A stretch of 64,000 nucleotides of DNA from an uncultured Chroococcidiopsis sp. GTDB taxonomy: Bacteria > Cyanobacteriota > Cyanobacteriia > Cyanobacteriales > Chroococcidiopsidaceae. The notes beneath the pieces were generated by a model, which saw only the letters and a program-made list of their open reading frames with translations, searched no databases and had not been told where the DNA came from. Positions 4,523 through 29,201 of this stretch are shown here, one piece after another; within the stretch, counting starts at the first letter, position 1; every line of letters begins with the position of its first letter. A program made the position numbers and the translations under genes. The stretch lies in the NCBI GenBank assembly GCA_964248365.1, contig CAXTYC010000001.1:1-64000 (forward strand), given 5' to 3'.

Positions 4523-4554
4523 ATCTTCCAAAATTTACTCCTTTTCACAAAACC

Positions 4555-6065: not shown

Positions 6066-6080
6066 AACTACCCACCTCTT

Positions 6081-6497: not shown

Positions 6498-6864
6498 GTC
6501 GTACTCCCCAAGACTAATTAGCTATGGTAGTGTATCAACAGCCAGCCAGGACGCGGCAAGAACGGCGTTTTGGATGCACCCTGGCGGGTAAATCTTACTC
6601 GGACAAATTCAGCTATATACGCGGGGAATCCCACACCTGATGCACCCTTACAGAGTGCGAAATAAAGGTACTGCCATCCTCGGATAAAGCTACAAAATAT
6701 TGATTTTGGTAAAGAAATAGTAATAAAGCAATCTCGGATGAAAACTTCATTTGGGCAAGTGATCGCCAGTTAGCAACTACTGGTGTCCGAGAACGATGTT
6801 GATCGGTAATTAGCTAAGTCTTTCGCCGTAAATTTAGCAATCATTATTCCCCCCAGATTCTTAT
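6498..6864. other. Putative oriT / divergent promoter region
   Basis: Non-coding gap between the stb-like operon and the relaxase; direct repeat GATGCACCCT at 6573-6582 and 6639-6648. Confidence 0.5.
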
Positions 6865-11471: not shown

Positions 11472-11490
11472 ACTAAGTTTGTTAACTTGA

Positions 11491-13153: not shown

Positions 13154-13160
13154 TGCTCAA

Positions 13161-13411
13161 GTTGTGGAATCTACGTCCACACAAAAGTCCACAAACGAAA
13201 CCATTACAGGACAAGGGTTTCAAGCTATTGTGGACTTTGTGGACTTTGTGGAATAAAACATTGATTTTTTTTATTTTGTCTGCCGATCCGTTTGGTAAAT
13301 TTTATCCCAAGTGAAACTAAGTCCACAAAGTCCACTTTGCCCATAAACTCCTAAAACGCGCTTGGTGTCAGCATTGTAGCAGTGGACTTTTTTGTGGACT
13401 TAGCTTCCACT
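13161..13411. repeat. Array of direct and inverted GTCCACAAA/TTTGTGGAC iterons (origin-like)
   Basis: GTCCAC x2 at 13175-13195; TTGTGGAC/TTGTGGAA x3 at 13228-13253; GTCCAC x2 at 13321-13335; GTGGAC x2 at 13382-13400. Confidence 0.7.
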
Positions 13412-13561
13412 GTCTCCCGTACTAATACCGAAATTTTTCGCAGGAAGTATAAAAACTTAATAAAAATTCTGTAGTAACACCCTTAGAAATCCGGTCACTG
13501 CCAAATTAGGCTCGAACCCAGCATACGTTTTGAGTCTATTTTAGTTTGGTTGGCGCAGTTC

Positions 13562-16429: not shown

Positions 16430-19400
16430 GTGTAGTTGCAAGCACGTTTGTAGGAATCCAAATCGAGGGCAACCTAATTGCCCCAGATATAACAGCAGAA
16501 ATGCTAGCTGGGACGATTAAAGGACAAGCACCGGAAGACTTTAACTTTACTAAAACTGACAAACTGGCTGATGAAATCGCGATCGCCTGGGGAGATGCCA
16601 AGGCATATTGGGCAGCATTTCAACGGGCATTGGCGAGACTACCTGAAAATGACTTAGCAACAACTGTCACCCGCGAACAGTGGGTCGTACCACTATTACG
16701 CAGTTTAGGTTATGACCCAGTTTATACAGCCAAAGCTGAAGTGATAGACGGACAAACTTTTGCCCTTTCCCACCGTACCGATCCTGGGGAAGATAAGCCG
16801 CCCATTCATGTTGTTGGCTGTCGCGTCAAGTTAGAACAGCGTCCGCCTAGCGGTACGCCGAGACTTTCTGCCCATGCCCTGATGCAAGAATACCTCAATC
16901 GCACCGAGCATCTGTGGGGGATTGTCACTAATGGGTTGCAGTGGCGGCTGTTGCGAGACTCTTCGTTAATGACTCGCCTCACCTACATCGAGTTTGACCT
17001 AGAACAAATTCTCAACAACGAGAACTTTGCAGAATTTGGTTTATTCTACCGCCTCTTCCACCGATCGCGACTACCACAGGGAGCAGACGATGCCGATGCG
17101 TGTTTGCTGGAATACTACCATCAAGAGGCGATTCAGCAGGGGGGACGGGTACGCGATCGCCTGCGCGATGGTGTAGAAAAAGCTTTGGTACTGCTGGGTA
17201 CTGGGTTTCTGCAACATCCAAACAACGGAAAGTTACGGCAATCCTTTGAGTCGGGAGAACTGGCTGACACCGTATACTATCGCCAGTTGTTACTGCTGAT
17301 TTACCGCTTGCTGTTCTTGATGGTGGCAGAAGCGCGAAATTTATTACTGACGGACGAAGATCCAGAGAAAGCCCGCATTTATTTGGAATACTACAGCGTC
17401 ACGCGCTTGCGAAATTTGGCAGAACGCCCCAGCTATCGGCGTGAAGGTTTCCAAGATTTATGGCAAGGGCTACGGGTAACGTTTCGGTTGTTTGATGAAA
17501 ACTGGCGCGGGAGAGAGTTAAAGCTTTCTCCTCTCAATGGTGACTTATTTGGATCGAAGACACTCAAGCATTTAGATGAGTATGCGATCGACAATCACGA
17601 ACTGTTGTTGGCAATTCGGCAGCTATCCTTATACGAACAAAAGGGACAATCACGGCGGGTGAATTATGCGGCGCTGGATGTGGAGGAACTGGGCAGCGTC
17701 TATGAAAGTTTGCTCGATTTTCATCCGCAGATTCAGCTACGGCAGGGAATTTATGAGTTTCAGTTAGTAACGGGAAGCGATCGCAAAACCACTGGTTCTT
17801 ACTACACGCCACCAGAACTAGTAGGGCAGTTGATTAAGAGTGCTTTGGAACCCGTCATTGAGGAGAAGTTGAAAGAGGCGAAAACTGTCTCAGAAAAAGA
17901 AGCGGCATTACTCAGCCTTAAGGTGTGCGATCCGGCTTGCGGTTCGGGACATTTCCTGTTGGCAGCAGCGCGGCGGATTGGCAAGGAGTTGGCGATCGCC
18001 AGAACGGGGGAAGCACAACCAGGGGTAGAACCGTTACGCAAAGCCATACGGGATGTGGTGCAAAACTGCATTTATGGAGTTGACTTGAACCCGTTAGCGG
18101 TCGATCTGTGCAAAGTCGCTTTATGGATTGAGGGCTTTAATCGTGGCTTTCCGCTGAATTTTCTCGATCACCGGATTAAGTGCGGTAATTCCTTGGTGGG
18201 GGTGCTGGATTTAGCTTGTTTAGATGAGGGTATCCCTGATGAGGCGTTTAAACCCGTAACTGGCGATGATAAACAATTAGCTAGCCGTTGGAAGAAAGAA
18301 AATAAAAAACAACGCGAGACAGATTTAGAAGGACAATTATCTTTAGATTTTGAGGGCAATTTAGAACAGGATAGATCGCATTATGCCCAAACTGCTAAAG
18401 AAGTGGGGGCGATCGCAGAAATTACAACTGGTGATGTCAGGCAAAAGCAAACCCAGTATCAACAAAGTCGTCAAGATAAAAGTTGGTGGCGAGACTATTC
18501 TGCTTGTAACCTGTGGACGGCTGCATTTTTCATGCCACTGACAGAACAAAATCTGCAATTATTGCCGACAACAGCAGCGTTAACACGATTATTACAGGAA
18601 TCAAAAATCGAGATTCAGGAGTCACACCAATCACTACTCCCCACTCCCCACTCACTACTCCCTCTCATCGAAGCAGCAAATAAGCTAGCGCAGGAGAAAC
18701 ACTTTTTCCATTGGTGTTTAGAGTTTCCTGAAGTATTTGAAGCTGATGGATTTGATTGCGTGTTAGGAAATCCGCCTTGGGAACGAATTAAGTTACAGGA
18801 AAAGGAGTTTTTCGCTTCTCGCAGTGCCGAGATTGCTAATGCTGCAAATAAGGCAGCGCGGGAGAAGTTGATTAAAGAATTGCCAAAAACTAATTCAATG
18901 TTAGCGCAAGCATTTGAAGAGGCGAAACATGATGCTGAAGCGCAAAGTAAATTTATCCGCGAATCAGTCAGATTTCCCCTAACTGCTGTGGGAGATATCA
19001 ATACTTATGCTGTATTTGCTGAAACTATGAGAAAGCTAATTTCTCCTAATGGCAGGCTTGGCGTTATTGTGCCTACGGGTATTGCTACTGATGATACTTG
19101 CAAAAAGTTTTTTGGAGATTTGATTCAAAATCAGGCTTTGGTAAGTTTGTATGATTTTGAGAATAGAGAAGCATTATTTACTGCTGTACATCGTAGTTAT
19201 AAATTTTCTCTACTTGCTATTAGTGGTAAAGCGATCGCTCAGGGAAATTTTGCCTTCTTCCTTACTCAGCAAAGGCAATTAGATAATCCAGCACGTCTAT
19301 TTAAGCTTTCTCCTCAAGATATTGCTTCACTAAATCCCAATACCCTCACTTGTCCAGTTTTTAGAACTCGCACTGATGCAGAAATCACCAAAAAAATCTA

Positions 19401-20829
19401 TCAGCGCGTACCTGTTTTAGAAAATGAACGCACTGAGGTAAACCCTTGGGGTATTTCATTTATGACTATGTTTCATATGTCAAATGATAGCGGGTTGTTT
19501 GTTATGGGAGTGGGGAGTAGTGAGTTGGGAGTAGGGAGTAGTAAGTTGGGAGTAGTAAATGAAAATTTAGTTCCTTTGTATGAAGCCAAGATGTTTCACC
19601 AGTTCGATCATCGTTGGGCGACGTATGAGGGAGTGGGGAGTAGTGAGTTGGGAGTAGAAACTAGGGATGTGACTTTGGAGGAAAAATGCGATTCAAATTA
19701 CCGAGTAAAACCGCGTTATTGGGTCAATCGTAATGAAGTAGAAAATAAGTTAAGTGATAAGTGGAAAAAAGGTTGGCTTTTGGCTTTTAGAGATATTTGT
19801 AGGGCAACTGATGAGCGTACTGCTATTTTTAGCTTAGTACCTAAAGTTGCTGTTAATCATAAAGCACCATTACTTTTTACAAGCCAAAATAAACCTGAGT
19901 TTTATTGTTTATTGATTGCTAATTTAAATAGTTTAGTTTTAGATTATGTGACAAGACAAAAAATTGGTGGAACATCACTAAGCTATTTCATCCTCAAACA
20001 ACTCCCTGTAATTCCTCCAGAAGCATACACCCAAGAAGATATCAAATTTATCAGCAGCCGCGTCCTCGAATTAGTCTACACCACTTGGGATATGCAACCC
20101 TTTGCCCAAGACGTTTGGCGGGAGTTGGGAGTTGGGAGTAGGGAAGTAGTTATTAAAGAGTGGGAAAGTAATTATGGACAATCGATCTATTCGTTCCTAT
20201 CAAGATTTAATGGTTTGGCAAGAGGGGATGAATCTAGCAGAAATGTGTTATGTCCTAACGAAAGAGTTTCCCAAAGAGGAAATTTACGGGATGATCTCAC
20301 AAATCCGCAGAGCAGCAGCTTCGATACCAGCGAACATAGCGGAGGGTTACGGAAGGGAGAATCGGGGCGAATACATTCAATTTCTGAAGATAGCTCAAGG
20401 CTCGCTCAAGGAACTGGAGACTCATCTAATCTTAGCAGAACGAGTGAAACTAACAACGAATCAAGCAGTAGATCCAATTCTGAAGCAATGCGAAACAGTG
20501 GGCAAAATGCTTCGTTCTTTAATTCGCTCACTCCAGAACAAAAACTAGAATTTTTTCTCACCACTCCCCACTCCCCACTCCCCATTCCCCCATTCATTTG
20601 GAATAGCGAAAGACGAGCATTATTAAGAGCAGAATTAGACGCATATTATGCCAAACTCTACGGACTTACCCGCGACGAACTCCGTTATATTCTCGATCCT
20701 GCTGATGTCTACGGTTCTGATTTTCCCAGCGAAACCTTTCGCGTATTGAAGAACAACGAAATCAAACAATTTGGCGAATATCGCACCCAAAGATTAGTGC
20801 TTGAAGCGTGGGATAGAATGTTTGGATAA
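16426..20829 (+). CDS. Large N6-adenine DNA methyltransferase (Eco57I/type IIG-like, DrmMI-like)
   Basis: GSYYTPP, DPACGSGHFL (motif I), GNPPW (motif IV), N-terminal WGIVTNG; C-terminal TRD and RAELDAYYAKLYGL; ATGA overlap with the SNF2 gene. Confidence 0.92.
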   Translation: MSVVASTFVGIQIEGNLIAPDITAEMLAGTIKGQAPEDFNFTKTDKLADEIAIAWGDAKAYWAAFQRALARLPENDLATTVTREQWVVPLLRSLGYDPVYTAKAEVIDGQTFALSHRTDPGEDKPPIHVVGCRVKLEQRPPSGTPRLSAHALMQEYLNRTEHLWGIVTNGLQWRLLRDSSLMTRLTYIEFDLEQILNNENFAEFGLFYRLFHRSRLPQGADDADACLLEYYHQEAIQQGGRVRDRLRDGVEKALVLLGTGFLQHPNNGKLRQSFESGELADTVYYRQLLLLIYRLLFLMVAEARNLLLTDEDPEKARIYLEYYSVTRLRNLAERPSYRREGFQDLWQGLRVTFRLFDENWRGRELKLSPLNGDLFGSKTLKHLDEYAIDNHELLLAIRQLSLYEQKGQSRRVNYAALDVEELGSVYESLLDFHPQIQLRQGIYEFQLVTGSDRKTTGSYYTPPELVGQLIKSALEPVIEEKLKEAKTVSEKEAALLSLKVCDPACGSGHFLLAAARRIGKELAIARTGEAQPGVEPLRKAIRDVVQNCIYGVDLNPLAVDLCKVALWIEGFNRGFPLNFLDHRIKCGNSLVGVLDLACLDEGIPDEAFKPVTGDDKQLASRWKKENKKQRETDLEGQLSLDFEGNLEQDRSHYAQTAKEVGAIAEITTGDVRQKQTQYQQSRQDKSWWRDYSACNLWTAAFFMPLTEQNLQLLPTTAALTRLLQESKIEIQESHQSLLPTPHSLLPLIEAANKLAQEKHFFHWCLEFPEVFEADGFDCVLGNPPWERIKLQEKEFFASRSAEIANAANKAAREKLIKELPKTNSMLAQAFEEAKHDAEAQSKFIRESVRFPLTAVGDINTYAVFAETMRKLISPNGRLGVIVPTGIATDDTCKKFFGDLIQNQALVSLYDFENREALFTAVHRSYKFSLLAISGKAIAQGNFAFFLTQQRQLDNPARLFKLSPQDIASLNPNTLTCPVFRTRTDAEITKKIYQRVPVLENERTEVNPWGISFMTMFHMSNDSGLFVMGVGSSELGVGSSKLGVVNENLVPLYEAKMFHQFDHRWATYEGVGSSELGVETRDVTLEEKCDSNYRVKPRYWVNRNEVENKLSDKWKKGWLLAFRDICRATDERTAIFSLVPKVAVNHKAPLLFTSQNKPEFYCLLIANLNSLVLDYVTRQKIGGTSLSYFILKQLPVIPPEAYTQEDIKFISSRVLELVYTTWDMQPFAQDVWRELGVGSREVVIKEWESNYGQSIYSFLSRFNGLARGDESSRNVLCPNERVSQRGNLRDDLTNPQSSSFDTSEHSGGLRKGESGRIHSISEDSSRLAQGTGDSSNLSRTSETNNESSSRSNSEAMRNSGQNASFFNSLTPEQKLEFFLTTPHSPLPIPPFIWNSERRALLRAELDAYYAKLYGLTRDELRYILDPADVYGSDFPSETFRVLKNNEIKQFGEYRTQRLVLEAWDRMFG
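20174..20548 (+). CDS. Four-helix-bundle protein (23S rRNA intervening-sequence protein family), nested in the +1 frame of the methyltransferase
   Basis: SYQDLMVWQ..FPKEEIYGMISQIRRAAASIPANIAEGYGR..FLKIAQGSLKELETHL is the full family signature; own ATG and stop. Confidence 0.92.
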   Translation: MDNRSIRSYQDLMVWQEGMNLAEMCYVLTKEFPKEEIYGMISQIRRAAASIPANIAEGYGRENRGEYIQFLKIAQGSLKELETHLILAERVKLTTNQAVDPILKQCETVGKMLRSLIRSLQNKN

Positions 20830-20860
20830 TTCGTAATTTGTAATTCGTAATTCGTAATTT
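20827..20860 (+). repeat. STRR-type heptamer array (TAATTCG)n
   Basis: taattcg taatttg taattcg taattcg taattt starting at the MTase stop codon. Confidence 0.8.
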
Positions 20861-20960
20861 AAGAGTTATTAATTATCGATTTTATTGACAGCAATATAAG
20901 TTTATTACTATATTTTATGGTAGTTTAATAATCAGTTAGAGTAGCTCGTGGTTGGACTTT

Positions 20961-21727
20961 GTGAAAACAGATGCTCTTTTTTACGAACTGATTAAAGAAT
21001 TGCCACAAATCTTTTTTGAATTGATTGATAAACCTGAAGTTAACTTAAATGCATATGAGTTTACTGCACCACAAATTAAACAACAAGCTTTTCGGCTGGA
21101 CGGTTTATTCTCTACTCTTACAGGATTTGAAGGCGAACCTTTGTATTTTGTAGAATTTCAAACTTATAAAGATGAGGAATTCTATGAACGGCTATTTGGA
21201 GAGATTTTTGTTTATTTTTGCTAGTATCAACCCTCCAATCCAAATTGGTATGCAATTGTAATCTACGATAGGCGCAGTCACGAAGTTCCGCCACACCCCC
21301 GCTATCAGAATTTGATGGAAAATCATGTGCGCCGCGTCTACATTAATGAACTTTCTACAGATACAGAGCAGATTTGCGAATTGGAGTGGCAAAATTATTT
21401 GTAGAAACTCCAACAAAAACTCTTTCCTTAGCGCAGCAACTTATTAATCAGACAACAGAAGAATTACTAGATGAACGCCTTCAGCAAAAAGTGATAGCAT
21501 TTATCCAAGCCATCGTTTTCTACAAGTTTCCAAATCTGACTCTAGAGGAAATTGAAACCATGCTGGACTTAAGTGAATTTAAGAAAAGTCGATTATATGA
21601 AAGCGTTTTAACAAAAACCAAGTTAGAACTTGTGCCAAAGCTGTTAGAAAAAGGACTTAGCGTTCAGGAAGTTGCAGACTTATTAGAGTTAGATGTAGAA
21701 GAAGTAAGGAAGGCAGCACGAGAGTAG
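20961..21727 (+). pseudogene. Rpn/DUF2887-family (putative transposase/nuclease) pseudogene
   Basis: MKTDALFYEL..QAFRLDGLF..YFVEFQ; stop at 21222-21224 and frameshift near 21370; C-terminus KLELVPKLLEKGLSVQEVADLLEL. Confidence 0.8.
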
Positions 21728-21789
21728 TAAGGAAAGTCATAGATGCTCATCATCATATATGCTTTCGCGGCTGACAGCATAATCAGACA

Positions 21790-22032
21790 GAAGTGGCGAC
21801 AATCGTTGTCTACAAGTTTCCTAATATGAGTAGAGAGTAAATTGAAGCCGTGTTAAATATAAACTTATTGAAAGAAACTAGAGTTTATCAAGAAGCCGCA
21901 GAAGAAGGAGAGTTGAAGGCTAAAGTTAAATTAGTACCGAAACTCCTGCAAAAAGGACTGAGCATTCAAGAAGTTGCAGACATACTAGAGTTAGATATAG
22001 AAGAAGTAAGAAAAGCTGCACAAAAACAGTAA
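21790..22032 (+). pseudogene. Second Rpn/DUF2887 C-terminal fragment
   Basis: TIVVYKFPNMSRE*IEA.. LKETRVYQEAAEEG..KGLSIQEVADILEL is paralogous to the preceding C-terminus. Confidence 0.7.
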
Positions 22033-22346
22033 AACTCTATTGTTTCTACCGATACGTAAAGCTGCTACCTGTCTTGCAGCAATCTGAAACTGGCTAGCGG
22101 CGATTACACGCGAAAATGAGTCAATTGCTCAAAAACGCCACCATTGAGGATATATTGGCTCAAATCAAGGGGCGGCAGGATCAGAAAATTACGGTAAAAT
22201 GAGTTACTTAGAATAGGCGGATCGTCTGTCGTAAGTTATATATATAACATCAAACGATATAGCAAATATTTTCCAACCAAAGATAAGTCTTGGAAGTGTG
22301 AGATAAGATATTTGGATGAGTATCTTTATACTTATCTGAATAACAA

Positions 22347-23246
22347 ATGTACAACATTGAACGAATCAGGGAGCTTTTCGACGATCAGGTTGTTCAATAT
22401 CTGTCTAATAAGAATCTTGGCGGAACTAGTAATGCAAAAGGTAACACGTATGAAAACTTCTTTGCTGTTTATCAGCTAGCTCTTTTGTCAAAAATTGTAA
22501 TTGAAGATAACAAAGAAGTAATATTATCAAGCCAAATTATTGCATTTGTTGACGATCTCATCATTGACTGTAAAAATGGCACTACTCTTCGTCACTACCA
22601 GTTGAAAAATGGTTCAAGTGTCACTTGGGGTGAGGGGTTAAAGTCAATATCTGATGACTTTACAAAGCAATACGAGCTAAATCATATAATCTTATCAAGA
22701 GAATCAGAGATTAACTTAGTAGTTTCCAGCACAAACCTTAGAGCTAATTTAGAGGCTAGCCTACCCGCAGCCATTAAGAATTACACTCAAGTAGTTTATT
22801 TTCCTTATGAGACTAGCCTAGTCAAAGTGATTGAAAAAGATGCTACCTTCCGACAAGCCATAGAATATCTGTGCGCTTTTGACAATCCCGCTCCAGACAA
22901 AATTGAATGTGTAGCAGCCGTACTACTAGGCGCATGGGTTTCCAGCCATAAGTCCAATATTTCTCTTATGGAAATATTAAAGAAAGCTCAAGAATCAACG
23001 CCTTCCTTTATCCGTTCCTTTAACAAGGAGTGGCAGTTAGATCCTGAAGTTGAAGAGATTTTGAGTAAAATATCAGATTTCCAATATAATCTGACAAAGG
23101 GCTTTTTACATTGGGAGTTTAAAAACGGACTTGAAGATGGTACATTGCCTTATAGCGTTGACACAGAGCAGTTTAAGAAATTTCAGGAAGTTGTTAAGAG
23201 AACTAAACCTACAAGATTTGAGGAACTTGAGGGTTTCTTGATATGA
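22347..23246 (+). CDS. Putative PD-(D/E)xK endonuclease (Cap4/DUF4297-like N-terminal domain)
   Basis: GGTSNAKGNTYE..FVDDLII..HYQLKN matches the G..G..Y / DD / QxK pattern of this nuclease class. Confidence 0.65.
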   Translation: MYNIERIRELFDDQVVQYLSNKNLGGTSNAKGNTYENFFAVYQLALLSKIVIEDNKEVILSSQIIAFVDDLIIDCKNGTTLRHYQLKNGSSVTWGEGLKSISDDFTKQYELNHIILSRESEINLVVSSTNLRANLEASLPAAIKNYTQVVYFPYETSLVKVIEKDATFRQAIEYLCAFDNPAPDKIECVAAVLLGAWVSSHKSNISLMEILKKAQESTPSFIRSFNKEWQLDPEVEEILSKISDFQYNLTKGFLHWEFKNGLEDGTLPYSVDTEQFKKFQEVVKRTKPTRFEELEGFLI

Positions 23247-23941
23247 CAAGAATCTACTCAGAGCTTGCTAATGAAAGCATCCAGGTTTTGCTAGATACTT
23301 TAGCAGATAAGAATAGTGCGCCAAATCTCTACAGAGACACTATGACTAAACTCGGTATAGCTCTGGGCGATGCAATTCTATCTCAAATCAGTGACGAGCA
23401 GTGTAATGTTTACCTTGCCTGCACAGTTGAAGATGCTGATTTTCTAGCAAGGGGTATGCTCATCCGTTTAGAAGAACAGCTTAAAAGTGTTGCATTTGCG
23501 TGTTTTTGGAACCAACGTTTTTCTCCTTTTGAAGTTGAAGATATTCAAATTGCTCCAATTTTAAGAAAGTATCAGGAACCTGTAAGCCAATCCGTCAACT
23601 ATCTAATTGTTGTAAAATCTATTATTTCTGGGGCTTGTGTAGTCAGGACAAATCTTGTTCACTTAATTCAAAAAATTGAACCTGAGAAGATATTTATAGT
23701 AGCTCCAGTTATGTATGTTCAGGCAGAAGAGAAACTTAGAAGTAGCTTTGAAAAAGAAATTTATGATAAGTTTCAATTCTTCTACTTTGCCAAAGATGAT
23801 AAGCGCACTCGTGAAGGCGAAGTAATTCCAGGAATTGGTGGTAACGTCTATTATAGGCTCGGATTTGATGGACAAGAGGCAAAGAATCAATATATTCCTG
23901 AAATTGTGAAAGATAGACGCTCAAAACTCACAAAGGTCTAG
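23243..23941 (+). CDS. Uracil phosphoribosyltransferase-fold protein with divergent PRPP loop
   Basis: LLDTLADKNSAPNLYRDTMTKLG (UPRTase N-terminal helices), IVVKSIISGACVV (PRPP-loop position), GEVIPGIGG..RLGF (UPRTase C-terminal motif); ATGA overlap. Confidence 0.7.
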   Translation: MTRIYSELANESIQVLLDTLADKNSAPNLYRDTMTKLGIALGDAILSQISDEQCNVYLACTVEDADFLARGMLIRLEEQLKSVAFACFWNQRFSPFEVEDIQIAPILRKYQEPVSQSVNYLIVVKSIISGACVVRTNLVHLIQKIEPEKIFIVAPVMYVQAEEKLRSSFEKEIYDKFQFFYFAKDDKRTREGEVIPGIGGNVYYRLGFDGQEAKNQYIPEIVKDRRSKLTKV

Positions 23942-24149
23942 AGTTTGTGAAAGTATATTAATGAAATTATTATAAGTATTAATACTAATCATTTAGCCAA
24001 AAATACAAAAATTTCAGCTATAGCTGTGATAGATATATCGATTTGAGTGAGATCGCACTCATCATGTGATATGTAAAACTAAATTGGGCATCTTAAGACA
24101 AGAACACAGGCGATCGCCTGGGAAAAATACTTCCGTGCAGCAGTTGTTT

Positions 24150-27100
24150 ATGTCAGATGCCCCCAGCCTCACAACTACCCTAGATATCTTTAATTTACGG
24201 GATGAAGTCATTGCCGACTACCGCCGCTACATTGAAAGCTTCCTGAAAATCCGCGATCCACGAGTAGAGGCATTTGTCGATCGCGAACTGGAACGGGGCG
24301 AACTGTGGCGCGATCCGCTCGTACAACTCAATCCGTCCTACAAAGGGGGTGCTACTGTCACCGAACTAGTACAGCAGGGGGTTCTCTATCCCGACTGCCA
24401 GCAATACTTTTCTAGAAACGGCAAACCCTACATCTTCCACTACCACCAAGAACAAGCATTTCTCGCCGCCCAGCGCCAGGAATCCTACGTTCTCACCACA
24501 GGCACGGGTTCGGGGAAAAGTATGACCTATGTAGTGCCAATTTTTGACGACTTGCTCCGCCATCGGGAGATTAAAGGCGTGAGGGCAATCCTGGTTTACC
24601 CGATGAATGCCTTAATTAACTCTCAAAAAGAAGAGTTTGACAAATTTCTAAGCCAAGTTCCCAATAGCCATATCCGCGTCGAGAAATACACTGGACAAGA
24701 AAGCCTAAAGCAAAAGACAGAAATTCAGAACAATCCGCCCCAAATTCTGCTGACCAACTACGTGATGCTAGAGCTAATGCTCTCTCGCACTCATGAAGAT
24801 CAGTTAGTTGCTTCCCCTGACCTAAAATTTCTAGTACTTGATGAATTACATACCTATCGCGGTCGTCAAGGTGCAGATGTTGCCATCCTGATCCGTAAAC
24901 TCCGCCAACGCTGCGGTAAAAACCTGCTTTATATCGGCACTAGCGCCACCATGTCCACCGAAGGCACTAGAGACAACCGCCGCCAAACTGTGGCTGGAGT
25001 AGCCAGTAAGTTATTTGGCGTGGCAGTCAAGCCAGAAAACGTCATTGATGAAACTTTGGAGCGTTCCATCCAACTTCCTGCTCCCAGTCCTGAAGAACTC
25101 CAGCGCAGCATTACAGTAAGCTTACCTCCAGAGTCAGAGCGATCGCTCACAGGTTTTAAATCCCATCCCCTAAGCGCCTGGATCGAGATGAACTTTGGTC
25201 TAGCCCAGGAGCAAGGGCATTTGATCCGCCGGACTCCGATTTCCTTAGCAGCAGGAGCCGAGCAGCTCTCTGAGCAAACCCAAATTCCAGTTGATACCTG
25301 CCGAGAAACCCTGAAACAAATGTTTCTCTGGGGTAGCAAAACGAAAGGATTGGCATTTCGCCTGCATCAATTTATCTCTCAAGGGGGCAGCGTCTACGCC
25401 ACGATTGAGTCGAGAGATAACCGCTTTCTCACCTTAGAAGGGCAGTATGCTACTACGAACGATCGCCTACTCTATCCCCTCGTCTTTTGCCGTGAATGCG
25501 GACAAGACTACTACGTGGTGCGCTACGACAAGGATAACTATACCGTCAGTCCCCAACTGGCGATCGCTCTCGATAGCAATGACGATGACGTGGATGAAGG
25601 CTACCTAACCTTAGACGAACCTGGGCTTTGGAATACTGGCGATGAAGATCGTCTCCCCGATAGCTGGTTTAATGACACCAAAAGGCAAGGTCGGGTTGCT
25701 AAAAAGGAATACGTTCCTCACATTCCCCAAAAGCTGCAAGTCCTTCCTAACGGGAAAGTTACCAACTCCTTACTAGAAGGAAAGGCTTGTTGGTTTGTCC
25801 CCAAACCGTTTCTGTTCTGTCCTAACTGTGGTGTCGTGCATGACAAGAAAAAGAACGAGTTTACTAAACTGTCTCGACTTAGTAGCGAAGGTCGTAGCAC
25901 TGCCACAACTCTTTTATGCCTTTCCACAGTTAACCGCTTAAAATCCAGTTCTGCCGTCAAACCCGAAGCAGCCAAAATCCTCAGCTTCACCGATAATCGC
26001 CAGGATGCGTCCTTACAAGCTGGACATTTCAACGATTTCGTTCAAACCAGCTTTCTGCGGGCAGTTTTGAATAAAGCACTCCAAGCGAATCAACGATTGA
26101 CGCACAGTATATTAGCAAGCGAAGTTGTCAAGCATATGGGTTTATCCCAAACTGACTATGCAATTGGGCCTGCTGAGTTTGGTCCTGGTAAGAAGCGCAA
26201 CGAGAGAATTTTTCAAGATTTAATTGAATACCGCCTCTACGAAGACTTGCGCCGAGGCTGGCGCATCGTGCAACCTAATTTAGAACAATGCGGTCTGCTG
26301 GCAATCGAGTATGACGGACTTGAGGAAATCTGCGAAGACACTCAAATTTGGCAGCAGTCTCTCCATCCCCTATTATTACAAGCTACGCCAGCACAAAGAT
26401 TATTTGTCGCTAAAGCTTTGCTCGATCAGCTACGTAAAGAACTGGCGATTGATGCGGCGCTACTACAAAGCGATCGCCTGGAGCAACTCAAACGTGAAGT
26501 AACGCAGGCAATTAAAGATCCTTGGGCATTCGACATTAACGAACGCCTGCACGAAGCTACTTGGACTTCCAGCGCCAGTAGTAACTCGGACAGAGTGAAA
26601 GTTAAACTCACCTCTCGTAGTAAAATTGGTCGCTTCCTCCGTTCCCCTGCTACCTGGTCGGGGCTACAACAACCATTAGCGGAATCAGAGTATAGCCAAC
26701 TGATCGGGGCATTAATCGAGATCTTGGGTGCGTCAGGATATCTCAAGATTGAAGGGCAGTTCGTGCAGCTACGCATTGACTGCATGATTTGGCAAGCTCA
26801 AACTGCTGACACAATTCCCGCCGATCCGCTGACATCCAAGCGTCTCCAAGGTAGCGAAGAAGTACAAATTGAAGTCAATCGATTTTTCCAAAACTTTTAT
26901 CAAGACAATGCTCAGCAACTTCACAGTTTGGAAGGACGAGAACATACAGGTCAAGTCAGCAACGAAGCCCGTCAAGCAAGGGAAGATAGGTTTCGTCAGG
27001 GACAACTATCATCCTTATTCTGCTCCCCGACAATGGAACTGGGCATCGATATTTCAGATTTAAATGCCGTCCACCTGCGGAATGTGCCGCCAACTCCTGC

Positions 27101-29201
27101 CAACTACGCTCAACGCAGTGGTCGGGCAGGACGTAGCGGACAGGAAGCACTGGTAATTACCTATGCCTCAGCTGGTAGCGGACACGACCAGTATTTCTTT
27201 CAACGCCAGGAACAGATGGTAGCAGGGGCAGTAGCGCCACCGAAGTTGGAGTTGGGCAATGAAGATTTGATGAAATCTCACATTTACTCGCTCTGGCTAG
27301 CCCATACAGGTGTTTATCTAGGGGAATCGATGAATCAAATTCTTGATTTAGATTTAGAAGCATACCCCCTAAAAGATTCGGCGCGATCGCAACTTACTCT
27401 TACCCCTACTAGCGTTGAAACTTGTATTCGAGCCGCACAAACCATTCTTGCCGATACCTTCTGTCAAGCCGACCTCAACCGGACATCCTGGTATTCAACA
27501 GATTGGCTGCGCTACACGCTCGAAAATGCTTTACTTGGGTTTGACCGAGCCTGCGATCGCTGGCGCAAACTTTACAGCGATGCCGTATTCCAATTGCAAG
27601 CAGCTCGAAAAATTGTAGACCGTTCTGCCAAAGGTAGCGTTACCCAAGAGGAACGCAAGCTAGCCCAAACGCAAGAGCGAGAAGCCCAGAGGCAAATCGA
27701 CTTGCTGGTAGGGCAAGTCAGCCCGAATCAAAGTCAAACCGAGTTAGAGTTTTACCCTTACTGTTACTTTGCTGCCGAAGGCTTTCTACCAGGATATAAC
27801 TTTCCCCGTCTCCCAGTCCGCGCTTATATCCCTGCTGGCGACGCGGGTAGATTTGTCTCTCGTCCCCGCGTGGTGGCAATTCGCGAGTTTGCCCCTAGCA
27901 ATGTCGTTTACTACGAAGGGTCTAAATTTCAAATTGCCAAAATGCGAGTTTCCGTAGGTGGGATTGAGGGTAGATACCTCCGCGTCAGCGTTTGTCCTAG
28001 CTGCGGCTACTTCCATGAGGGGGATGATTCCCTGCGCGACACTTGTGAAAACTGTGGTGCGAGAATTGTAGCCGATCGCGATGGCAACCCCGCCAAACTC
28101 AACCGCGTGCTGGAAGTCGAGACAATGATCACTCGCAGACGAGAACGAATTACTTGTGACGAGGAAGAACGGCTCAAGTACGGTTACAACGTCACGACAC
28201 ATTTTCGCTACGCGCCCCAAAAGCAAGAGCTAGCAACAGTTATAGCAGCGGATGGAACGCACCTATTACGGTTAATCTATGGTGAAACGGCAAAAATTCG
28301 GCGGATTAATCGGGGTTTAAGGCGCGATCGCACTGAACGCGGATTTAAGCTCGATGCAGCAACAGGAGTCTGGGGCGATCGCTCGACGAACGACACACCC
28401 CAGGAGAATTTACAAACAGAAGTCAACTTGATGGTTGACGATACTTGTAATATTCTGCTTGTCGAACCAGTCAACATTCCAACTGGGAATTCTGAAGCAT
28501 TTCTCGCCACTGTTCAGTTTGCTCTTGAACGAGCTATTCAAGCAGTATATAAACTTGAAGCGGACGAACTAGCATCCGTTCGCTTGGGTCAAGGGCAACA
28601 CTTACTATTTTGGGAAGCCGCCCAAGGAGGAGCAGGCGTTCTTTCCCAAATCCTTGAAGATCCTCAAGCCTTCAGACAGCTTGCTAATGCTGCGTTAGAT
28701 ATTTGCCACTTCCAACAAGAGAAGCAAAGCTGTACCAAAGTTTGCTACCAATGCCTATTATCCTACCGCAATCAGTTCGATCATCCACTATTGGATCGCC
28801 ACCTAATTCGCCCTTGGTTGAATCGACTAGGTAGCAGTACCATAACCCGTCAAGCTGCAAGTGGTTCCCGCGAAGCTCAATACCAGCAATTGTTCCAGCA
28901 GACAGATCCCAACTCTAATTTTGAGCGAATTGTTTTAGCAGAGATCGATCGCCGAGGGTTAAAACTACCGGATGCTGCCCAAGAGTTAATTCCTGAAGCT
29001 AACTGCAAACCAGACTTTATCTACAGGAATGCCAAAATTGCTGTCTTCTGCGATGGTTCGATTCACGATCGCCCAGAACAACAACAGCAAGACAAAGTTG
29101 AGCGCGATAATCTCAGATATGCGGCTGGGTATTATGTTTTAACTCTGCGACATGATGGGGATTGGCAACGGCAGCTAGAAGTTTTGGTTTCTTTGTTGTA
29201 A
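24150..29201 (+). CDS. Large DEAD/DEAH helicase with DUF1998 and C-terminal Vsr/DUF559-like nuclease
   Basis: TGTGSGKS, LDELHTYRGRQGAD, TSAT, SFTDNRQDAS, TMELGIDI, QRSGRAGR; DUF1998 WEAAQGGAG..CTKVCYQCLLSYRNQ; tail PDFIY..IAVFCDGSIHD. Confidence 0.9.
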   Translation: MSDAPSLTTTLDIFNLRDEVIADYRRYIESFLKIRDPRVEAFVDRELERGELWRDPLVQLNPSYKGGATVTELVQQGVLYPDCQQYFSRNGKPYIFHYHQEQAFLAAQRQESYVLTTGTGSGKSMTYVVPIFDDLLRHREIKGVRAILVYPMNALINSQKEEFDKFLSQVPNSHIRVEKYTGQESLKQKTEIQNNPPQILLTNYVMLELMLSRTHEDQLVASPDLKFLVLDELHTYRGRQGADVAILIRKLRQRCGKNLLYIGTSATMSTEGTRDNRRQTVAGVASKLFGVAVKPENVIDETLERSIQLPAPSPEELQRSITVSLPPESERSLTGFKSHPLSAWIEMNFGLAQEQGHLIRRTPISLAAGAEQLSEQTQIPVDTCRETLKQMFLWGSKTKGLAFRLHQFISQGGSVYATIESRDNRFLTLEGQYATTNDRLLYPLVFCRECGQDYYVVRYDKDNYTVSPQLAIALDSNDDDVDEGYLTLDEPGLWNTGDEDRLPDSWFNDTKRQGRVAKKEYVPHIPQKLQVLPNGKVTNSLLEGKACWFVPKPFLFCPNCGVVHDKKKNEFTKLSRLSSEGRSTATTLLCLSTVNRLKSSSAVKPEAAKILSFTDNRQDASLQAGHFNDFVQTSFLRAVLNKALQANQRLTHSILASEVVKHMGLSQTDYAIGPAEFGPGKKRNERIFQDLIEYRLYEDLRRGWRIVQPNLEQCGLLAIEYDGLEEICEDTQIWQQSLHPLLLQATPAQRLFVAKALLDQLRKELAIDAALLQSDRLEQLKREVTQAIKDPWAFDINERLHEATWTSSASSNSDRVKVKLTSRSKIGRFLRSPATWSGLQQPLAESEYSQLIGALIEILGASGYLKIEGQFVQLRIDCMIWQAQTADTIPADPLTSKRLQGSEEVQIEVNRFFQNFYQDNAQQLHSLEGREHTGQVSNEARQAREDRFRQGQLSSLFCSPTMELGIDISDLNAVHLRNVPPTPANYAQRSGRAGRSGQEALVITYASAGSGHDQYFFQRQEQMVAGAVAPPKLELGNEDLMKSHIYSLWLAHTGVYLGESMNQILDLDLEAYPLKDSARSQLTLTPTSVETCIRAAQTILADTFCQADLNRTSWYSTDWLRYTLENALLGFDRACDRWRKLYSDAVFQLQAARKIVDRSAKGSVTQEERKLAQTQEREAQRQIDLLVGQVSPNQSQTELEFYPYCYFAAEGFLPGYNFPRLPVRAYIPAGDAGRFVSRPRVVAIREFAPSNVVYYEGSKFQIAKMRVSVGGIEGRYLRVSVCPSCGYFHEGDDSLRDTCENCGARIVADRDGNPAKLNRVLEVETMITRRRERITCDEEERLKYGYNVTTHFRYAPQKQELATVIAADGTHLLRLIYGETAKIRRINRGLRRDRTERGFKLDAATGVWGDRSTNDTPQENLQTEVNLMVDDTCNILLVEPVNIPTGNSEAFLATVQFALERAIQAVYKLEADELASVRLGQGQHLLFWEAAQGGAGVLSQILEDPQAFRQLANAALDICHFQQEKQSCTKVCYQCLLSYRNQFDHPLLDRHLIRPWLNRLGSSTITRQAASGSREAQYQQLFQQTDPNSNFERIVLAEIDRRGLKLPDAAQELIPEANCKPDFIYRNAKIAVFCDGSIHDRPEQQQQDKVERDNLRYAAGYYVLTLRHDGDWQRQLEVLVSLL

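What the first reader, a model, noticed from the sequence alone, without database searches (positions are those of the whole stretch)
22347..23941. Candidate undescribed two-gene defence system: Cap4-like nuclease plus UPRTase-fold partner
Seen: two intact, translationally coupled genes (ATGA overlap), AT-rich and without any HIP1 site I could find, sit between the MTase and helicase of the HIP1-rich DISARM-like operon. Gene 1 has a PD-(D/E)xK-type pattern (GNTYE..VDD..QLK). Gene 2 keeps the UPRTase N- and C-terminal motifs but has KS in place of the acidic PRPP-binding residues. Known: Cap4-type nucleases are anti-phage effectors, and PRTase folds occur in defence (e.g. ShosTA), but I do not recognise this pairing. 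Inference: the PRTase may sense or make a nucleotide (UMP, PRPP or a modified base) that controls the nuclease.
Basis: partly seen in the sequence, partly recalled or inferred. Interest (0 to 1): 0.78.

Follow-up and report, generated by a model that had tools for sequence, protein, structure and literature searches.

The report
Cap4-like nuclease with UPRTase-fold partner
Two overlapping genes, a defence-type DNA-cutting enzyme and a remodelled copy of a nucleotide-salvage enzyme that probably binds it, form a widespread unnamed gene pair found mostly inside or beside bacterial anti-phage systems and on small plasmids, so it is a good candidate for a new immune or toxin-antitoxin-like module.

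Summary
G1 (22347-23246, 299 aa) and G2 (23243-23941, 232 aa) are intact and overlap by ATGA. They lie in a HIP1-free, low-GC tract of 4.9 kb that is wider than the pair.

G1 has the fold of the Cap4/LmuA/HamA/DUF4297 defence nucleases (Z 10.4-11.5), with invariant E36, D69, D70 and Q85. G2 has a uracil-phosphoribosyltransferase fold (Z up to 19.5), but K125-S126 replace the acidic PRPP motif. The genome has two true UPRTases elsewhere.

The pairing is strict: G2 follows G1 in 46 of 50 cyanobacterial loci and in 13 of 17 distant metagenomic loci. The G1 family has 617 clusters at 50% identity. A complex model scores 0.88 against 0.00 for controls.

The pair is rare and patchy (G1 in 9 of 401 sampled genomes). 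It occurs on roughly 9-10 kb plasmids, and inside or beside ARMADA-like, Hma, BREX and type I R-M loci.

Here it is cargo in the variable methylase-helicase gap of an ARMADA-type-I-like operon, not classical DISARM. In other genomes that gap holds toxin-antitoxin pairs.

No named system matched in PADLOC v2, Pfam, NCBIfam or the papers searched. Function is inferred: a nuclease effector held or switched by a nucleotide-binding partner. No experiment exists.

The parts
22347..23246 (+). G1: 299-aa Cap4/LmuA/HamA-type PD-(D/E)xK nuclease. The nuclease fold spans about residues 24-225. A C-terminal extension (226-299), together with helix 182-199, forms the predicted G2-binding surface.
   Evidence: ORF and translation. 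AF2 model pLDDT 91.3. Foldseek top hits are LmuA, HamA, Cap4 and Avs3. VIA-align: Cap4 6vm6_F Z 11.5, rmsd 3.9, 172 aligned; HerA-DUF4297 Z 11.3; LmuA Z 11.2; HamA Z 10.7; Avs3 Z 10.4. Invariant G25 G26 E36 D69 D70 Q85 W94 P140 in 45 relatives. Interface residues.
23243..23941 (+). G2: 232-aa UPRTase-fold protein with a remodelled active site. K125-S126 replace the acidic PRPP motif and V62-E63-D64-A65-D66 sit at the PPi-loop position. It is the predicted binding partner of G1.
   Evidence: ORF and translation. AF2 model pLDDT 78.3. UPRTases score Z 14.5-19.5 against 10.6 or less for other PRTases; Foldseek 2e55_A E 4.1e-9. Alignment to the genome's own UPRTase. Not found by PF14681 in the own-genome search, which found two true UPRTases on other contigs. 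Complex model.
23243..23246 (+). ATGA start/stop overlap of G1 and G2, suggesting translational coupling.
   Evidence: Read directly. In 34 of 46 related loci the G2 match begins at the base where the G1 match ends. The same 4-base overlap is seen in distant loci, for example L114 at 6891-6894.
20830..22346 (+). Remainder of the variable cargo between methylase and G1: decayed DUF2887/Rpn-family gene fragments (20952-21224, 21374-21727, 21850-22032) and non-coding DNA.
   Evidence: Pfam DUF2887 E 2.4e-29 (profile positions 1-84 of 200) and 1.2e-12 (positions 138-200). An intact Rpn-family gene occupies the same place in plasmid NZ_CP097481. DNA homology to an empty-slot operon ends at 20825 and resumes at 24178.
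19239..24109 (.). HIP1-free, low-GC tract that contains the pair.
   Evidence: 63 HIP1 sites in the window, none in this interval. GC is 0.32-0.45 from about 18250 to 24000.
13550..16429 (+). Context: SNF2/BrxHII-like helicase of the host ARMADA-type-I-like operon.
   Evidence: Pfam SNF2-rel_dom and Helicase_C. PADLOC DpdE 1.5e-203, DrmD 5.4e-98, BrxHI|BrxHII 3.2e-57.
16426..20829 (+). Context: PglX/DrmMI-like N6-adenine methyltransferase (1467 aa).
   Evidence: Pfam Eco57I and N6_Mtase. PADLOC DrmMI 5.5e-87.
24066..29201 (+). Context: YprA-family (DEAD + Helicase_C + MZB/DUF1998) helicase, 1711 aa. In one lineage G2 is fused in frame to its N-terminus.
   Evidence: Pfam DEAD, Helicase_C and MZB. 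PADLOC best hit DruE 2.7e-93. Fusion P0391 of 1925 aa, read in L027 at 10897-16659.

Best explanation
G1-G2 is a self-contained, horizontally mobile two-gene conflict module. It may act in phage defence by abortive infection, as a toxin-antitoxin-like addiction module, or as both.

G1 is the effector: a DNA endonuclease of the Cap4/LmuA/HamA type with catalytic core E36...D69-D70...Q85-x-K87. G2 descends from uracil phosphoribosyltransferase and has lost the PRPP-binding chemistry, but it keeps the nucleotide-shaped pocket. It binds G1 through its PRTase 'flexible loop' (residues 89-113) and its C-terminal helix.

The proposed working: at rest G2 holds G1 inactive in a heterocomplex. A change in what occupies the G2 pocket moves the loop and releases or activates the nuclease. 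The trigger could be a pyrimidine nucleotide, a phage-altered nucleotide pool, or nucleic acid.

In this window the pair is acquired cargo. It sits in the variable gap between the methylase and the YprA helicase of an ARMADA-type-I-like operon on an integrative or conjugative element.

Shown: the folds, motif conservation, strict pairing, patchy distribution, contexts, and a complex model that passes its controls. Inferred: nuclease activity, inhibition by G2, ligand sensing, and any phenotype.
For: Folds:
- G1 matches defence nucleases: Cap4 Z 11.5, HerA-DUF4297 11.3, LmuA 11.2, HamA 10.7, Avs3 10.4. Ordinary restriction enzymes score 8.1 or less (Foldseek).
- G2 matches UPRTases at Z 14.5-19.5, against 10.6 or less for other PRTases.

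Catalytic core: E36, D69, D70 and Q85 are invariant and K87 is at least 90% conserved in 45 relatives of 27-56% identity.

G2 is not the housekeeping enzyme:
- PF14681 finds two true UPRTases on contigs C3 and C20 and does not find G2.
- K125-S126 replace the acidic motif.

Pairing:
- G2 lies directly downstream in 46 of 50 genome loci. Three of the other four are cut by contig ends and one is degenerate.
- The same holds in 13 of 17 distant metagenomic loci of GC 0.44-0.64. The other four hold only G1 fragments or have no room downstream.
- One natural G1-G2 fusion exists: P0394, 532 aa, hhalign probability 100 to the G1 profile.

Binding: the complex model scores 0.88, against 0.00 for the best of 3 controls. 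That mark was reached by 116 of 157 solved complexes and 2 of 215 mismatched pairs. These counts hold only roughly because my own alignments were used. The three runs agree in at least 98% of contacts and partner pLDDT is at least 90.

Accessory and mobile behaviour:
- G1 occurs in 9 of 401 sampled genomes of the phylum (7 full length) and G2 in 11 of 401.
- The pair lies on a 10.4-kb plasmid next to the replication gene, on a circular contig of about 9 kb with a 141-nt terminal overlap, and on a conjugative plasmid.
- Tyrosine integrases lie nearby in 6 loci.

Defence contexts:
- 13 of 50 loci lie in the same SNF2-methylase-helicase operon.
- Others lie in Hma (L021, L042), BREX (L008, L011) or next to a type I S subunit (L035). 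Neighbours also include CapH/CapP, RmrA-like and HEC-02A genes.
- Distant loci lie next to HsdR, SIR2-NACHT and HmaA-like genes.

The slot itself: in 14 related operons without the pair, the same methylase-helicase gap is 0.4-5.2 kb. It holds VapBC/PIN, MNT-HepT, RelE and UPF0175+DUF3368 modules, Uma2 genes, and an AAA_21 ATPase + HNH + ParE-UvrD group. The pair therefore occupies a niche typical of toxin-antitoxin and small defence modules.

Modularity of G2: it is fused to an M78 metallopeptidase domain (P0392, P0393; in genome G166 this fusion follows G1), and it is paired with an unrelated 318-aa protein in G073.
Against: - There is no experimental datum. Nuclease activity, toxicity, protection and ligand binding are all untested.
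- The defence-context count has no formal background control.
- Many loci have only housekeeping or unannotated neighbours. One example is the seven related loci L024-L026, L030, L036, L043 and L050, which share a conserved context (PsbQ, FAD oxidoreductase, ALAD).
- G2 can stand without an intact G1: alone in G200, and beside a G1 remnant of about 78 residues in G370 and G071. It may therefore have a role of its own.
- The strong link to SF2-helicase/methylase systems and the G2-helicase fusion suggest the pair is not fully autonomous.
- The residue equivalences with UPRTase rest on a weak alignment.
- The G2 model is only moderately confident (pLDDT 78, below 50 for residues 102-109). That loop is the centre of the predicted interface.
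Confidence: 0.6

Rival explanations
1. The pair is a functional accessory of SF2-helicase/methylase restriction systems (ARMADA, Hma, BREX, type I R-M) and not an independent system. G2 docks on the helicase complex, and G1 is a second-line nuclease released when that complex stalls or is inhibited. This would be a guard arrangement like PrrC inside the EcoprrI type I locus (recalled from memory, not from a call).
For: - 13 of 50 loci, the window and plasmid NZ_CP097481 all have the pair in the same operon. G2 is usually immediately upstream of the YprA helicase and co-directional with it.
- G2 is fused in frame to the helicase in L027 (protein P0391, 1925 aa, a cluster of 38 member sequences).
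- The pair lies between HmaB and HmaA (L042, L021), inside BREX before BrxHI (L011), directly before HsdR (L130) and after an HsdS gene (L035).
- In G370 and G071 an intact G2 with a remnant of the G1 C-terminus sits right after the helicase.
Against: - Only 2 (G000, G035) of about 21 close homologues (at least 59% identity) of this helicase in the 401 sampled genomes have G1 next to them.
- 14 related operons lack the pair.
- The pair stands alone on roughly 9-10 kb plasmids and in many loci with no such system.
- The same gap collects unrelated toxin-antitoxin modules, so co-location may only reflect a permissive insertion site.
- The fusion could be a lost stop codon in one lineage.
- According to PMC12458937 (passages read), the ARMADA helicase already carries its own C-terminal Vsr-type nuclease. 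This was not tested here.
Confidence: 0.2
2. It is purely a plasmid or island addiction (post-segregational killing) module with no role against phages. G1 is the toxin and G2 the antitoxin.
For: - The pair lies next to the replication gene on a 10.4-kb non-mobilizable plasmid and on a circular element of about 9 kb.
- It shares its slot with classical toxin-antitoxin pairs.
- The complex model supports tight binding.
- The genes are translationally coupled.
Against: - The gene order (toxin first) and a 232-aa enzyme-fold antitoxin are unusual for type II systems.
- G2 is more conserved than G1 (63% against 67% mean column identity within cyanobacteria, but 45-96% against 43-92% identity to the query) and shows no DNA-binding domain.
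- Swapping of effectors around G2 (M78 fusion, other partner) is more typical of immune sensors.
- The two roles are not mutually exclusive.
Confidence: 0.1
3. It is a housekeeping or repair function: a pyrimidine-salvage enzyme variant with a repair nuclease.
For: - G2 has the UPRTase fold.
- Some loci have only metabolic neighbours.
Against: - G1 is present in only 9 of 401 sampled genomes and G2 in 11 of 401.
- The genome has two canonical UPRTases.
- The PRPP motif is lost.
- The window copy has foreign base composition.
- The pair is carried on plasmids.
- The nuclease is closest to immune effectors.
Confidence: 0.04

Closest known systems
Hachiman (HamA nuclease + HamB helicase)
   Same: A two-gene layout with the PD-(D/E)xK nuclease effector first and a partner that holds it in a complex. 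HamA (8zue_A) is among the best structural matches of G1 (Z 10.7, rmsd 3.3, 166 aligned).
   Different: The partner here is a 232-aa UPRTase-fold protein and not an SF2 helicase. PADLOC gave no Ham hit for G1 or G2.
Lamassu (LmuA effector with Cap4-type nuclease + LmuB SMC, with or without LmuC)
   Same: The only PADLOC hit of G1 is LmuA/DUF4297 (E 1.5e-3, residues 7-94). LmuA structures match at Z 11.2 (9nxx_B) and Z 10.5 (9hr5_A).
   Different: No SMC-type LmuB lies next to the pair in the window or emerged among the neighbour families. The sequence hit is below any usable threshold.
CBASS Cap4 effector (DUF4297 nuclease + SAVED sensor)
   Same: It is the best fold match (6vm6_F, Z 11.5). 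The logic is the same: a nuclease controlled by a nucleotide-binding module.
   Different: In Cap4 the sensor is a fused SAVED domain that reads a cyclic oligonucleotide made by a CD-NTase. Here the candidate sensor is a separate UPRTase-fold protein, G1 has no SAVED domain, and no cyclase gene was seen next to the pair.
DUF4297-HerA
   Same: A nuclease of the same fold (9c1m_G, Z 11.3) that works in complex with a partner encoded by the neighbouring gene.
   Different: The partner there is a HerA hexameric ATPase and not a PRTase-fold protein.
PRTase-containing defence systems (retron type III effector, ShosTA, PsyrTA, Ophion OpnC)
   Same: A PRTase-fold protein in a defence setting. The weak PADLOC hit of G2 is PRTase_III-A (E 1.2e-3). 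PsyrT shows that PRTase-helicase fusions exist (PMC5512222 and 10.1101/2025.09.30.679545, passages read).
   Different: By those papers these PRTases form one clade with a catalytic DD motif, and they act as the toxin or effector. ShosT is reported to disturb purine metabolism. G2 is of the UPRTase clade, lacks the acidic motif, and is paired with a nuclease and not with DprA or a reverse transcriptase.
PrrC anticodon nuclease embedded in the EcoprrI type I R-M locus (recalled from memory, not from a call)
   Same: A suicide effector encoded inside a helicase/methylase restriction operon.
   Different: PrrC is an RNase with an ABC-type ATPase domain, and its coupling to the R-M complex is proven. 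For G1-G2 the coupling is only suggested by position and one fusion.

Membership tests
Cap4-type nuclease domain (DUF4297, PF14130) - G1 | PD-(D/E)xK fold of the Cap4/LmuA/HamA type | tested here: met
   Residues about 24-225 align to Cap4 (Z 11.5, rmsd 3.9, 172 aligned), HerA-DUF4297 (11.3), LmuA (11.2), HamA (10.7) and Avs3 (10.4). The top 12 rows are all of this type.
Cap4-type nuclease domain (DUF4297, PF14130) - G1 | Conserved acidic and lysine catalytic residues (E ... D ... (E/Q)xK) | tested here: met
   E36, D69, D70 and Q85 are invariant and K87 is at least 90% conserved in 45 relatives. That these are the catalytic residues is inferred from the general PD-(D/E)xK pattern.
Cap4-type nuclease domain (DUF4297, PF14130) - G1 | Match to the family's sequence profile | tested here: not met
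   There is no Pfam hit to PF14130 at E up to 1. The only hit is PADLOC LmuA at E 1.5e-3, 16 bits. An Atlas lead exists: clusters in which 27% of members carry PF14130.
Uracil phosphoribosyltransferase (PF14681) - G2 | UPRTase fold | tested here: met
   3g6w_C Z 19.5, rmsd 2.7, 174 aligned. Fourteen UPRTase entries score Z 14.5-19.5, and the next PRTases score 10.6 or less.
Uracil phosphoribosyltransferase (PF14681) - G2 | Match to the family's sequence profile | tested here: not met
   There is no PF14681 hit. The own-genome search with PF14681 lists C3, C20 and a weak C4 site, but not G2. The G2 profile against PDB gives 1o5o_A at E 0.66.
Uracil phosphoribosyltransferase (PF14681) - G2 | Acidic residue(s) at the start of the PRPP-binding loop | tested here: not met
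   K125-S126 align with E-P of the genome's own UPRTase (a weak alignment). K125 is at least 90% conserved and S126 is invariant in 38 relatives.
Uracil phosphoribosyltransferase (PF14681) - G2 | Arg-containing PPi-binding loop (ILRAG) | tested here: inconclusive
   hhalign places the invariant T61-V62-E63-D64-A65-D66 near this loop, but with low column confidence.
CBASS | CD-NTase cyclase gene plus an effector with a SAVED or other cyclic-nucleotide receptor | tested here: not met
   No cyclase or SAVED hit appears in PADLOC or Pfam scans of G1, G2 and the window neighbours.
Lamassu | LmuB SMC-like ATPase encoded next to LmuA | tested here: not met
   No SMC/LmuB hit appears among the window neighbours. 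No recurrent SMC family appears among the neighbours of 50 loci.
ShosTA / PsyrTA / retron type III | PRTase of the ComF-like clade with a DD motif, partnered with a DprA-like antitoxin or a reverse transcriptase | tested here: not met
   G2 is of the UPRTase type and lacks the acidic motif. The PADLOC PRTase_III-A hit has E 1.2e-3 only. The partner is G1 in 46 of 50 loci. The definition of the clade is taken from passages of 10.1101/2025.09.30.679545 and PMC5512222.
Type II-like toxin-antitoxin module | Two co-transcribed genes whose products bind each other; toxin neutralised by its partner; found on plasmids and islands | tested here: inconclusive
   Coupling, predicted binding and plasmid or island location fit. 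Toxicity and neutralisation cannot be tested with these tools.
ARMADA type I (host operon, not the pair) | YprA-family helicase + BrxHII-like SNF2 helicase + PglX-like methylase; in cyanobacteria the order is BrxHII-PglX-YprA; the YprA is closest to Druantia DruE | tested here: met
   The gene order is SNF2 (13550-16429), methylase (16426-20829), YprA-like (24066-29201). Pfam MZB/DUF1998 E 4.7e-6. PADLOC BrxHI|BrxHII 3.2e-57, DrmMI 5.5e-87, DruE 2.7e-93 against DrmA 2.9e-14. The definition comes from passages of PMC12458937. The C-terminal Vsr nuclease described there was not tested.

The most novel reading that the evidence does not exclude
The pair is a portable 'guard' that plugs into different SF2-helicase restriction machines (ARMADA, Hma, BREX, type I R-M). 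In this reading the UPRTase-derived G2 docks on the helicase, as it is covalently joined to it in one lineage. When a phage disables or stalls that machine, or when the nucleotide in the G2 pocket changes, G2 lets go of the Cap4-like nuclease G1, which then destroys DNA. This would be the first PRTase-fold sensor in immunity, and a general second-line module shared by unrelated restriction systems.
Probability: 0.15. Interest if true: 0.85.

Novelty: new variant of a known kind. Interest (0 to 1): 0.65.

Why it matters
If the pair protects against phages, it adds a new sensor type to bacterial immunity: a salvage enzyme turned into the regulatory subunit of a Cap4-like nuclease. It would also define a large unannotated family. 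The G1 family has 617 clusters at 50% identity, and their members are labelled 'hypothetical' wherever a name was seen.

The pair's repeated lodging inside ARMADA, Hma, BREX and type I R-M operons makes one open question testable: are small modules embedded in restriction operons passengers, or back-up layers wired to the host system? The methylase-helicase gap of the cyanobacterial ARMADA-like operon, which holds toxin-antitoxin pairs in other genomes, would be a natural place to look for further such modules.

Tried and rejected
- Pfam and NCBIfam scans of G1 and G2 gave nothing significant.
- Profile searches of both families against PDB sequences gave only chance-level hits (CurF E 0.63; 1o5o_A E 0.66).
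- P0099 (486 aa) and P0106 (513 aa) were suspected to be G1-G2 fusions. BLASTP to G2 shows nothing, so they are G1 with N-terminal extensions.
- tblastn of G1 against 50,697 phage records gave no match. Against 72,556 plasmids, G1 and G2 each hit only the same two cyanobacterial plasmids.
- The listing of cluster members for 10 distant G1 relatives gave no organism names.
- The first metagenome scan with alignment A3 failed because it had no conserved stretch. It was repeated with the narrower alignment A4.
- The search of earlier findings by place and by sequence returned nothing.
- The look-up of sequencing runs found no run holding half or more of the stretch's sampled words, and only one small-share run on record as RNA. 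Expression was therefore not examined and read laying was not used.
- The PRTase system in the DefensePredictor paper is a single 343-aa retron-III-like protein ('NADR') and not this pair (main-text passage and supplements).
- I considered that G1 replaces the missing DISARM nuclease DrmC, and judged it unlikely. Most related operons lack the pair. By PMC12458937 the ARMADA helicase has its own nuclease domain (not tested here).
- I considered that the DUF2887/Rpn gene mobilises the pair. It is seen next to the pair only in the window and in NZ_CP097481, so this was not pursued.
- DefenseFinder, HHpred against Pfam, and a ligand-bound complex model could not be run.
Full report
**1. What is in the sequence**

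ORF listing and translation give G1 at 22347-23246 (+, 299 aa) and G2 at 23243-23941 (+, 232 aa). The G2 ATG overlaps the G1 TGA in ATGA.

GC is 0.33-0.39 over the pair, against 0.47-0.52 in the flanking helicase genes. The low-GC tract starts near 18250, inside the methylase gene. The window holds 63 HIP1 sites (GCGATCGC; 0.49 expected by chance), and none lies between 19239 and 24109.

Between the methylase stop (20829) and G1 lie fragments of a decayed DUF2887/Rpn-family gene.

**2. What the two proteins are**

Sequence libraries are nearly silent.
- Pfam and NCBIfam give nothing significant.
- PADLOC gives only LmuA/DUF4297 for G1 residues 7-94 (E 1.5e-3) and retron-III PRTase for G2 residues 99-187 (E 1.2e-3).

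Structure prediction with family alignments gave confident models: G1 pLDDT 91.3 and G2 pLDDT 78.3.

G1:
- Its best matches are all nucleases of anti-phage systems: Cap4 (Z 11.5, rmsd 3.9, 172 aligned), HerA-DUF4297 (11.3), LmuA (11.2), HamA (10.7) and Avs3 (10.4).
- These stand above ordinary restriction enzymes, which score 8.1 or less (Foldseek).
- The aligned part is residues about 24-225. Residues 226-299 are an extension.
- In 45 relatives of only 27-56% identity, G25, G26, E36, D69, D70, Q85, W94 and P140 are invariant and K87 is at least 90% conserved. This is the E...D...QxK pattern of an active PD-(D/E)xK nuclease. That reading of the pattern is established knowledge of the superfamily. 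Activity itself is not shown.

G2:
- It is specifically UPRTase-like. Fourteen UPRTase entries score Z 14.5-19.5 (for example 3g6w_C: 19.5, rmsd 2.7, 174 aligned), and other PRTases score 10.6 or less (Foldseek).
- It is not the cell's UPRTase. A PF14681 search of the whole genome finds two canonical genes on other contigs and does not find G2.
- A weak profile alignment to one of them (hhalign E 0.002) puts K125-S126 opposite the acidic E-P that begins the PRPP loop, S129-G130-A131-C132 opposite TGGS, and IPGIGGNVY opposite VPGLGDAGD. It puts the invariant VEDAD near the Arg-bearing PPi loop (conservation).
- The pocket shape and the phosphate-loop glycine are kept, but the charged residues that hold PRPP-Mg are replaced. 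I read this as a binding protein and not a PRPP-using enzyme. This is inference.

**3. The pair is a conserved unit**

- The word-indexed search found 206 (G1) and 946 (G2) relatives. All named ones were cyanobacterial 'hypothetical protein', often with adjacent locus tags.
- In one-genome-per-species contigs, 50 loci encode G1, and in 46 of them G2 follows directly. In 34 of those 46 the G2 match begins at the base where the G1 match ends. Three of the other four loci are cut by contig ends and one (L040) is degenerate.
- An exhaustive profile search found 617 G1 clusters at 50% identity (220 at E 1e-30 or better), nearly all about 300 aa long.
- I sampled one distant branch in metagenomes (17 loci, GC 0.44-0.64, so mostly not cyanobacterial). 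In 13 of these 17 loci a G2 homologue again follows G1, with the same 4-base overlap where it could be read. The other 4 hold only G1 fragments or have no room downstream.
- One 532-aa protein is a G1-G2 fusion.
- A complex model supports direct binding. The score is 0.88, against 0.00 for the best of 3 controls. That mark was reached by 116 of 157 solved complexes and 2 of 215 mismatched pairs, and these counts hold only roughly with my own alignments. The runs agree in at least 98% of contacts and partner pLDDT is at least 90.
- The interface joins G1 residues 182-199, 217-221, 259-268 and 292-299 to G2 residues 89-113, 136-143 and 215-230. The G2 segment 89-113 is the PRTase flexible loop, which is of low confidence in the monomer model. 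I know of no solved complex of this kind (recalled), so the pass is unlikely to come from memory of a solved structure.

**4. Where it lives**

The pair is rare and patchy. G1 occurs in 9 of 401 sampled genomes of the phylum (7 full length) and G2 in 11 of 401.

It is found on mobile replicons:
- a 10.4-kb non-mobilizable plasmid, right after the replication gene;
- a circular contig of about 9 kb with a 141-nt terminal overlap, which also carries a DUF3854 replication-type protein and an integrase;
- a 319-kb conjugative plasmid.

The window itself carries a TrwC relaxase, a coupling protein and an integrase.

Among the 50 loci:
- 13 place the pair in the same SNF2-methylase-...-YprA-helicase operon as in the window. 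Plasmid NZ_CP097481 does the same, with an intact Rpn-family gene where the window has fragments.
- Other loci lie inside Hma (L021, L042) or inside BREX (L008, L011; in L011 before BrxHI-PglZ-BrxA).
- Others lie after a type I S subunit (L035), or next to CapH/CapP, RmrA-like, HEC-02A, PDC-S45 and PDC-S28 genes.

Distant loci lie before HsdR (L130), beside a SIR2-NACHT gene on a conjugative element (L115), and near an HmaA-like helicase (L114).

Many other loci show only housekeeping or unannotated neighbours. I have no background control for these counts.

**5. The host operon and its slot**

The host operon fits 'ARMADA type I' as described in PMC12458937 (passages read):
- a YprA-family helicase closest to Druantia DruE, a BrxHII-like helicase and a PglX-like methylase;
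- in cyanobacteria the order is BrxHII-PglX-YprA.

My scans agree with this. That preprint reports direct, non-abortive defence by ARMADA type II in E. coli. In the passages and four held supplement files I searched, nothing resembling G1 or G2 is mentioned (one file was cut when stored).

Homologues of the helicase occur in 34 of 401 sampled genomes. Of about 21 close ones (at least 59% identity), only G000 and G035 have G1 beside them.

I fetched the upstream DNA of 20 such helicases.
- 14 stretches contained both methylase and helicase without the pair. The gap between them ranged from 363 to 5193 nt.
- The gaps hold VapBC/PIN modules (3), MNT-HepT (2), RelE+DUF2281, UPF0175+DUF3368 and Uma2 (3).
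- They also hold an AAA_21 ATPase + HNH + ParE-UvrD group, a radical-SAM/AAA_17 pair and a transposase.
- DNA homology between the window and an empty-slot operon stops at the methylase stop and resumes inside the helicase gene.

The pair thus sits in a cargo slot that elsewhere collects toxin-antitoxin and small defence modules.

**6. Variants that bear on mechanism**

- G2 is fused in frame to the YprA helicase in L027 (P0391, 1925 aa, a cluster of 38 member sequences).
- G2 is fused to a C-terminal M78 (HExxH) peptidase domain in P0392 and P0393. In genome G166 this fusion follows G1.
- In G073 a G2 homologue follows an unrelated 318-aa protein. In G200 it stands without G1.
- In G370 and G071 an intact G2 and a G1 C-terminal remnant of about 78 residues lie just after the helicase.

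G2 is thus the constant part, and its partners vary. That is the usual behaviour of a sensor or regulator module in immune systems.

**7. Most likely working, and rivals**

Best reading (0.6): an autonomous nuclease-plus-regulator conflict module. G2 binds and restrains G1, and a ligand-driven or partner-driven movement of the G2 loop frees or activates the nuclease. The outcome would be abortive infection and/or post-segregational killing. Only fold, motifs, pairing, predicted binding and context are shown. Every functional step is inferred.

Rivals:
- An accessory or guard wired to SF2-helicase restriction systems (0.2). It is supported by position and the helicase fusion, and opposed by the many operons without the pair and the many pairs without an operon.
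- Pure plasmid addiction (0.1).
- Housekeeping salvage or repair (0.04). It is contradicted by rarity, foreign composition, the two real UPRTases and the lost PRPP motif.

**8. Comparison with the known**

The pair works most like Hachiman, Lamassu, DUF4297-HerA or Cap4: a Cap4-type nuclease governed by a partner. It is not a member of any of them. The defining partners (HamB, LmuB, HerA, SAVED with a cyclase) are absent.

PRTases already known in defence (retron III, ShosT, PsyrT, OpnC) are, by the papers read in passages, a ComF-like clade with a catalytic DD motif that acts as the toxin. G2 is of the UPRTase clade, lacks that motif, and is paired with a nuclease.

I found no paper that describes this pairing:
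- 'phosphoribosyltransferase + Cap4 + anti-phage': 0 papers;
- 'PRTase + nuclease + defense system + phage': 11 papers, none fitting by listing or by the passages read;
- further searches.

DefenseFinder was not available, and bioRxiv supplements are closed, so a recent naming cannot be excluded.

**9. Verdict**

It is a new variant of a known kind: a two-gene system of nuclease effector plus regulatory partner, with an unprecedented UPRTase-derived partner. Interest is 0.65. The family is large, clean and unannotated, it has a testable mechanism, and it has an intriguing tie to restriction-type helicase systems. There is no functional evidence yet.

Noticed in passing
window 13550-29201: The host operon (SNF2/BrxHII-like, PglX/DrmMI-like methylase, YprA/DruE-like helicase with MZB/DUF1998) matches the ARMADA type I description of PMC12458937, in its cyanobacterial gene order, better than classical DISARM. 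No PLD DrmC gene is present. Helicase homologues occur in 34 of 401 sampled genomes of the phylum.
   Followed up: partly
loci L094-L110 (upstream of helicase homologues): The methylase-helicase gap of this operon family is a variable cargo slot of 0.4-5.2 kb. It holds VapBC/PIN, MNT-HepT, RelE and UPF0175+DUF3368 modules, Uma2 genes, an HNH gene, an AAA_21+HNH+ParE-UvrD group, a radical-SAM pair or a transposase. The SNF2-methylase gap also varies in length.
   Followed up: partly
window 20952-22032: There are three fragments of DUF2887/Rpn-family genes: an N-terminal part at 20952-21224, a C-terminal part at 21374-21727, and a second C-terminal-like copy at 21850-22032. An intact copy lies at the same place in plasmid NZ_CP097481.
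   Followed up: partly
window 18250-20829: The 3' 2.6 kb of the methylase gene is low in GC (0.37-0.45). Methylase residues about 1233-1389 have no counterpart in 14 homologous methylases. This may be a swapped or inserted specificity region.
   Followed up: no
window 2201-12615 and 31364-32473: Mobile-element genes surround the island: an MkoA-like SF1 helicase (2201-4522), a TrwC relaxase (6865-9855), a TrwB/TraG coupling protein (9837-11471) and a tyrosine integrase (31364-32473, minus strand). The region looks like an integrative conjugative or mobilizable element.
   Followed up: no
window 29534-31306: A 590-aa HEAT-repeat protein lies directly after the YprA helicase. It has no PADLOC hit, and its relation to the operon is unknown.
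   Followed up: no
L143 7624-9327 (minus strand); proteins P0392, P0393: G2 is fused to a C-terminal M78 (HExxH) metallopeptidase-like domain, following G1 in genome G166. Stand-alone relatives of that peptidase part occur in 12 other sampled genomes, next to a gene of about 220-240 aa that is not G2.
   Followed up: partly
L150 399-1363; L151 (reverse complement) 399-2507: In two related genomes an intact G2 and only the last 78 or so residues of G1 lie immediately downstream of the YprA helicase. In one of them the remnant is further split by an inserted 306-aa ORF.
   Followed up: partly
L153 5267-6947: A G2 homologue (45% identity) follows an unrelated 318-aa protein after a 29-nt gap, where G1 would otherwise be. 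This may be an alternative partner.
   Followed up: no
L045 (whole contig) and L048: These contigs of about 9 kb have G1 split across their ends. L045 has a 141-nt terminal overlap, so it is circular. They carry a DUF3854 replication-type protein and an integrase. L048 is binned with a Beijerinckiaceae MAG but resembles the Microcystis contig.
   Followed up: partly
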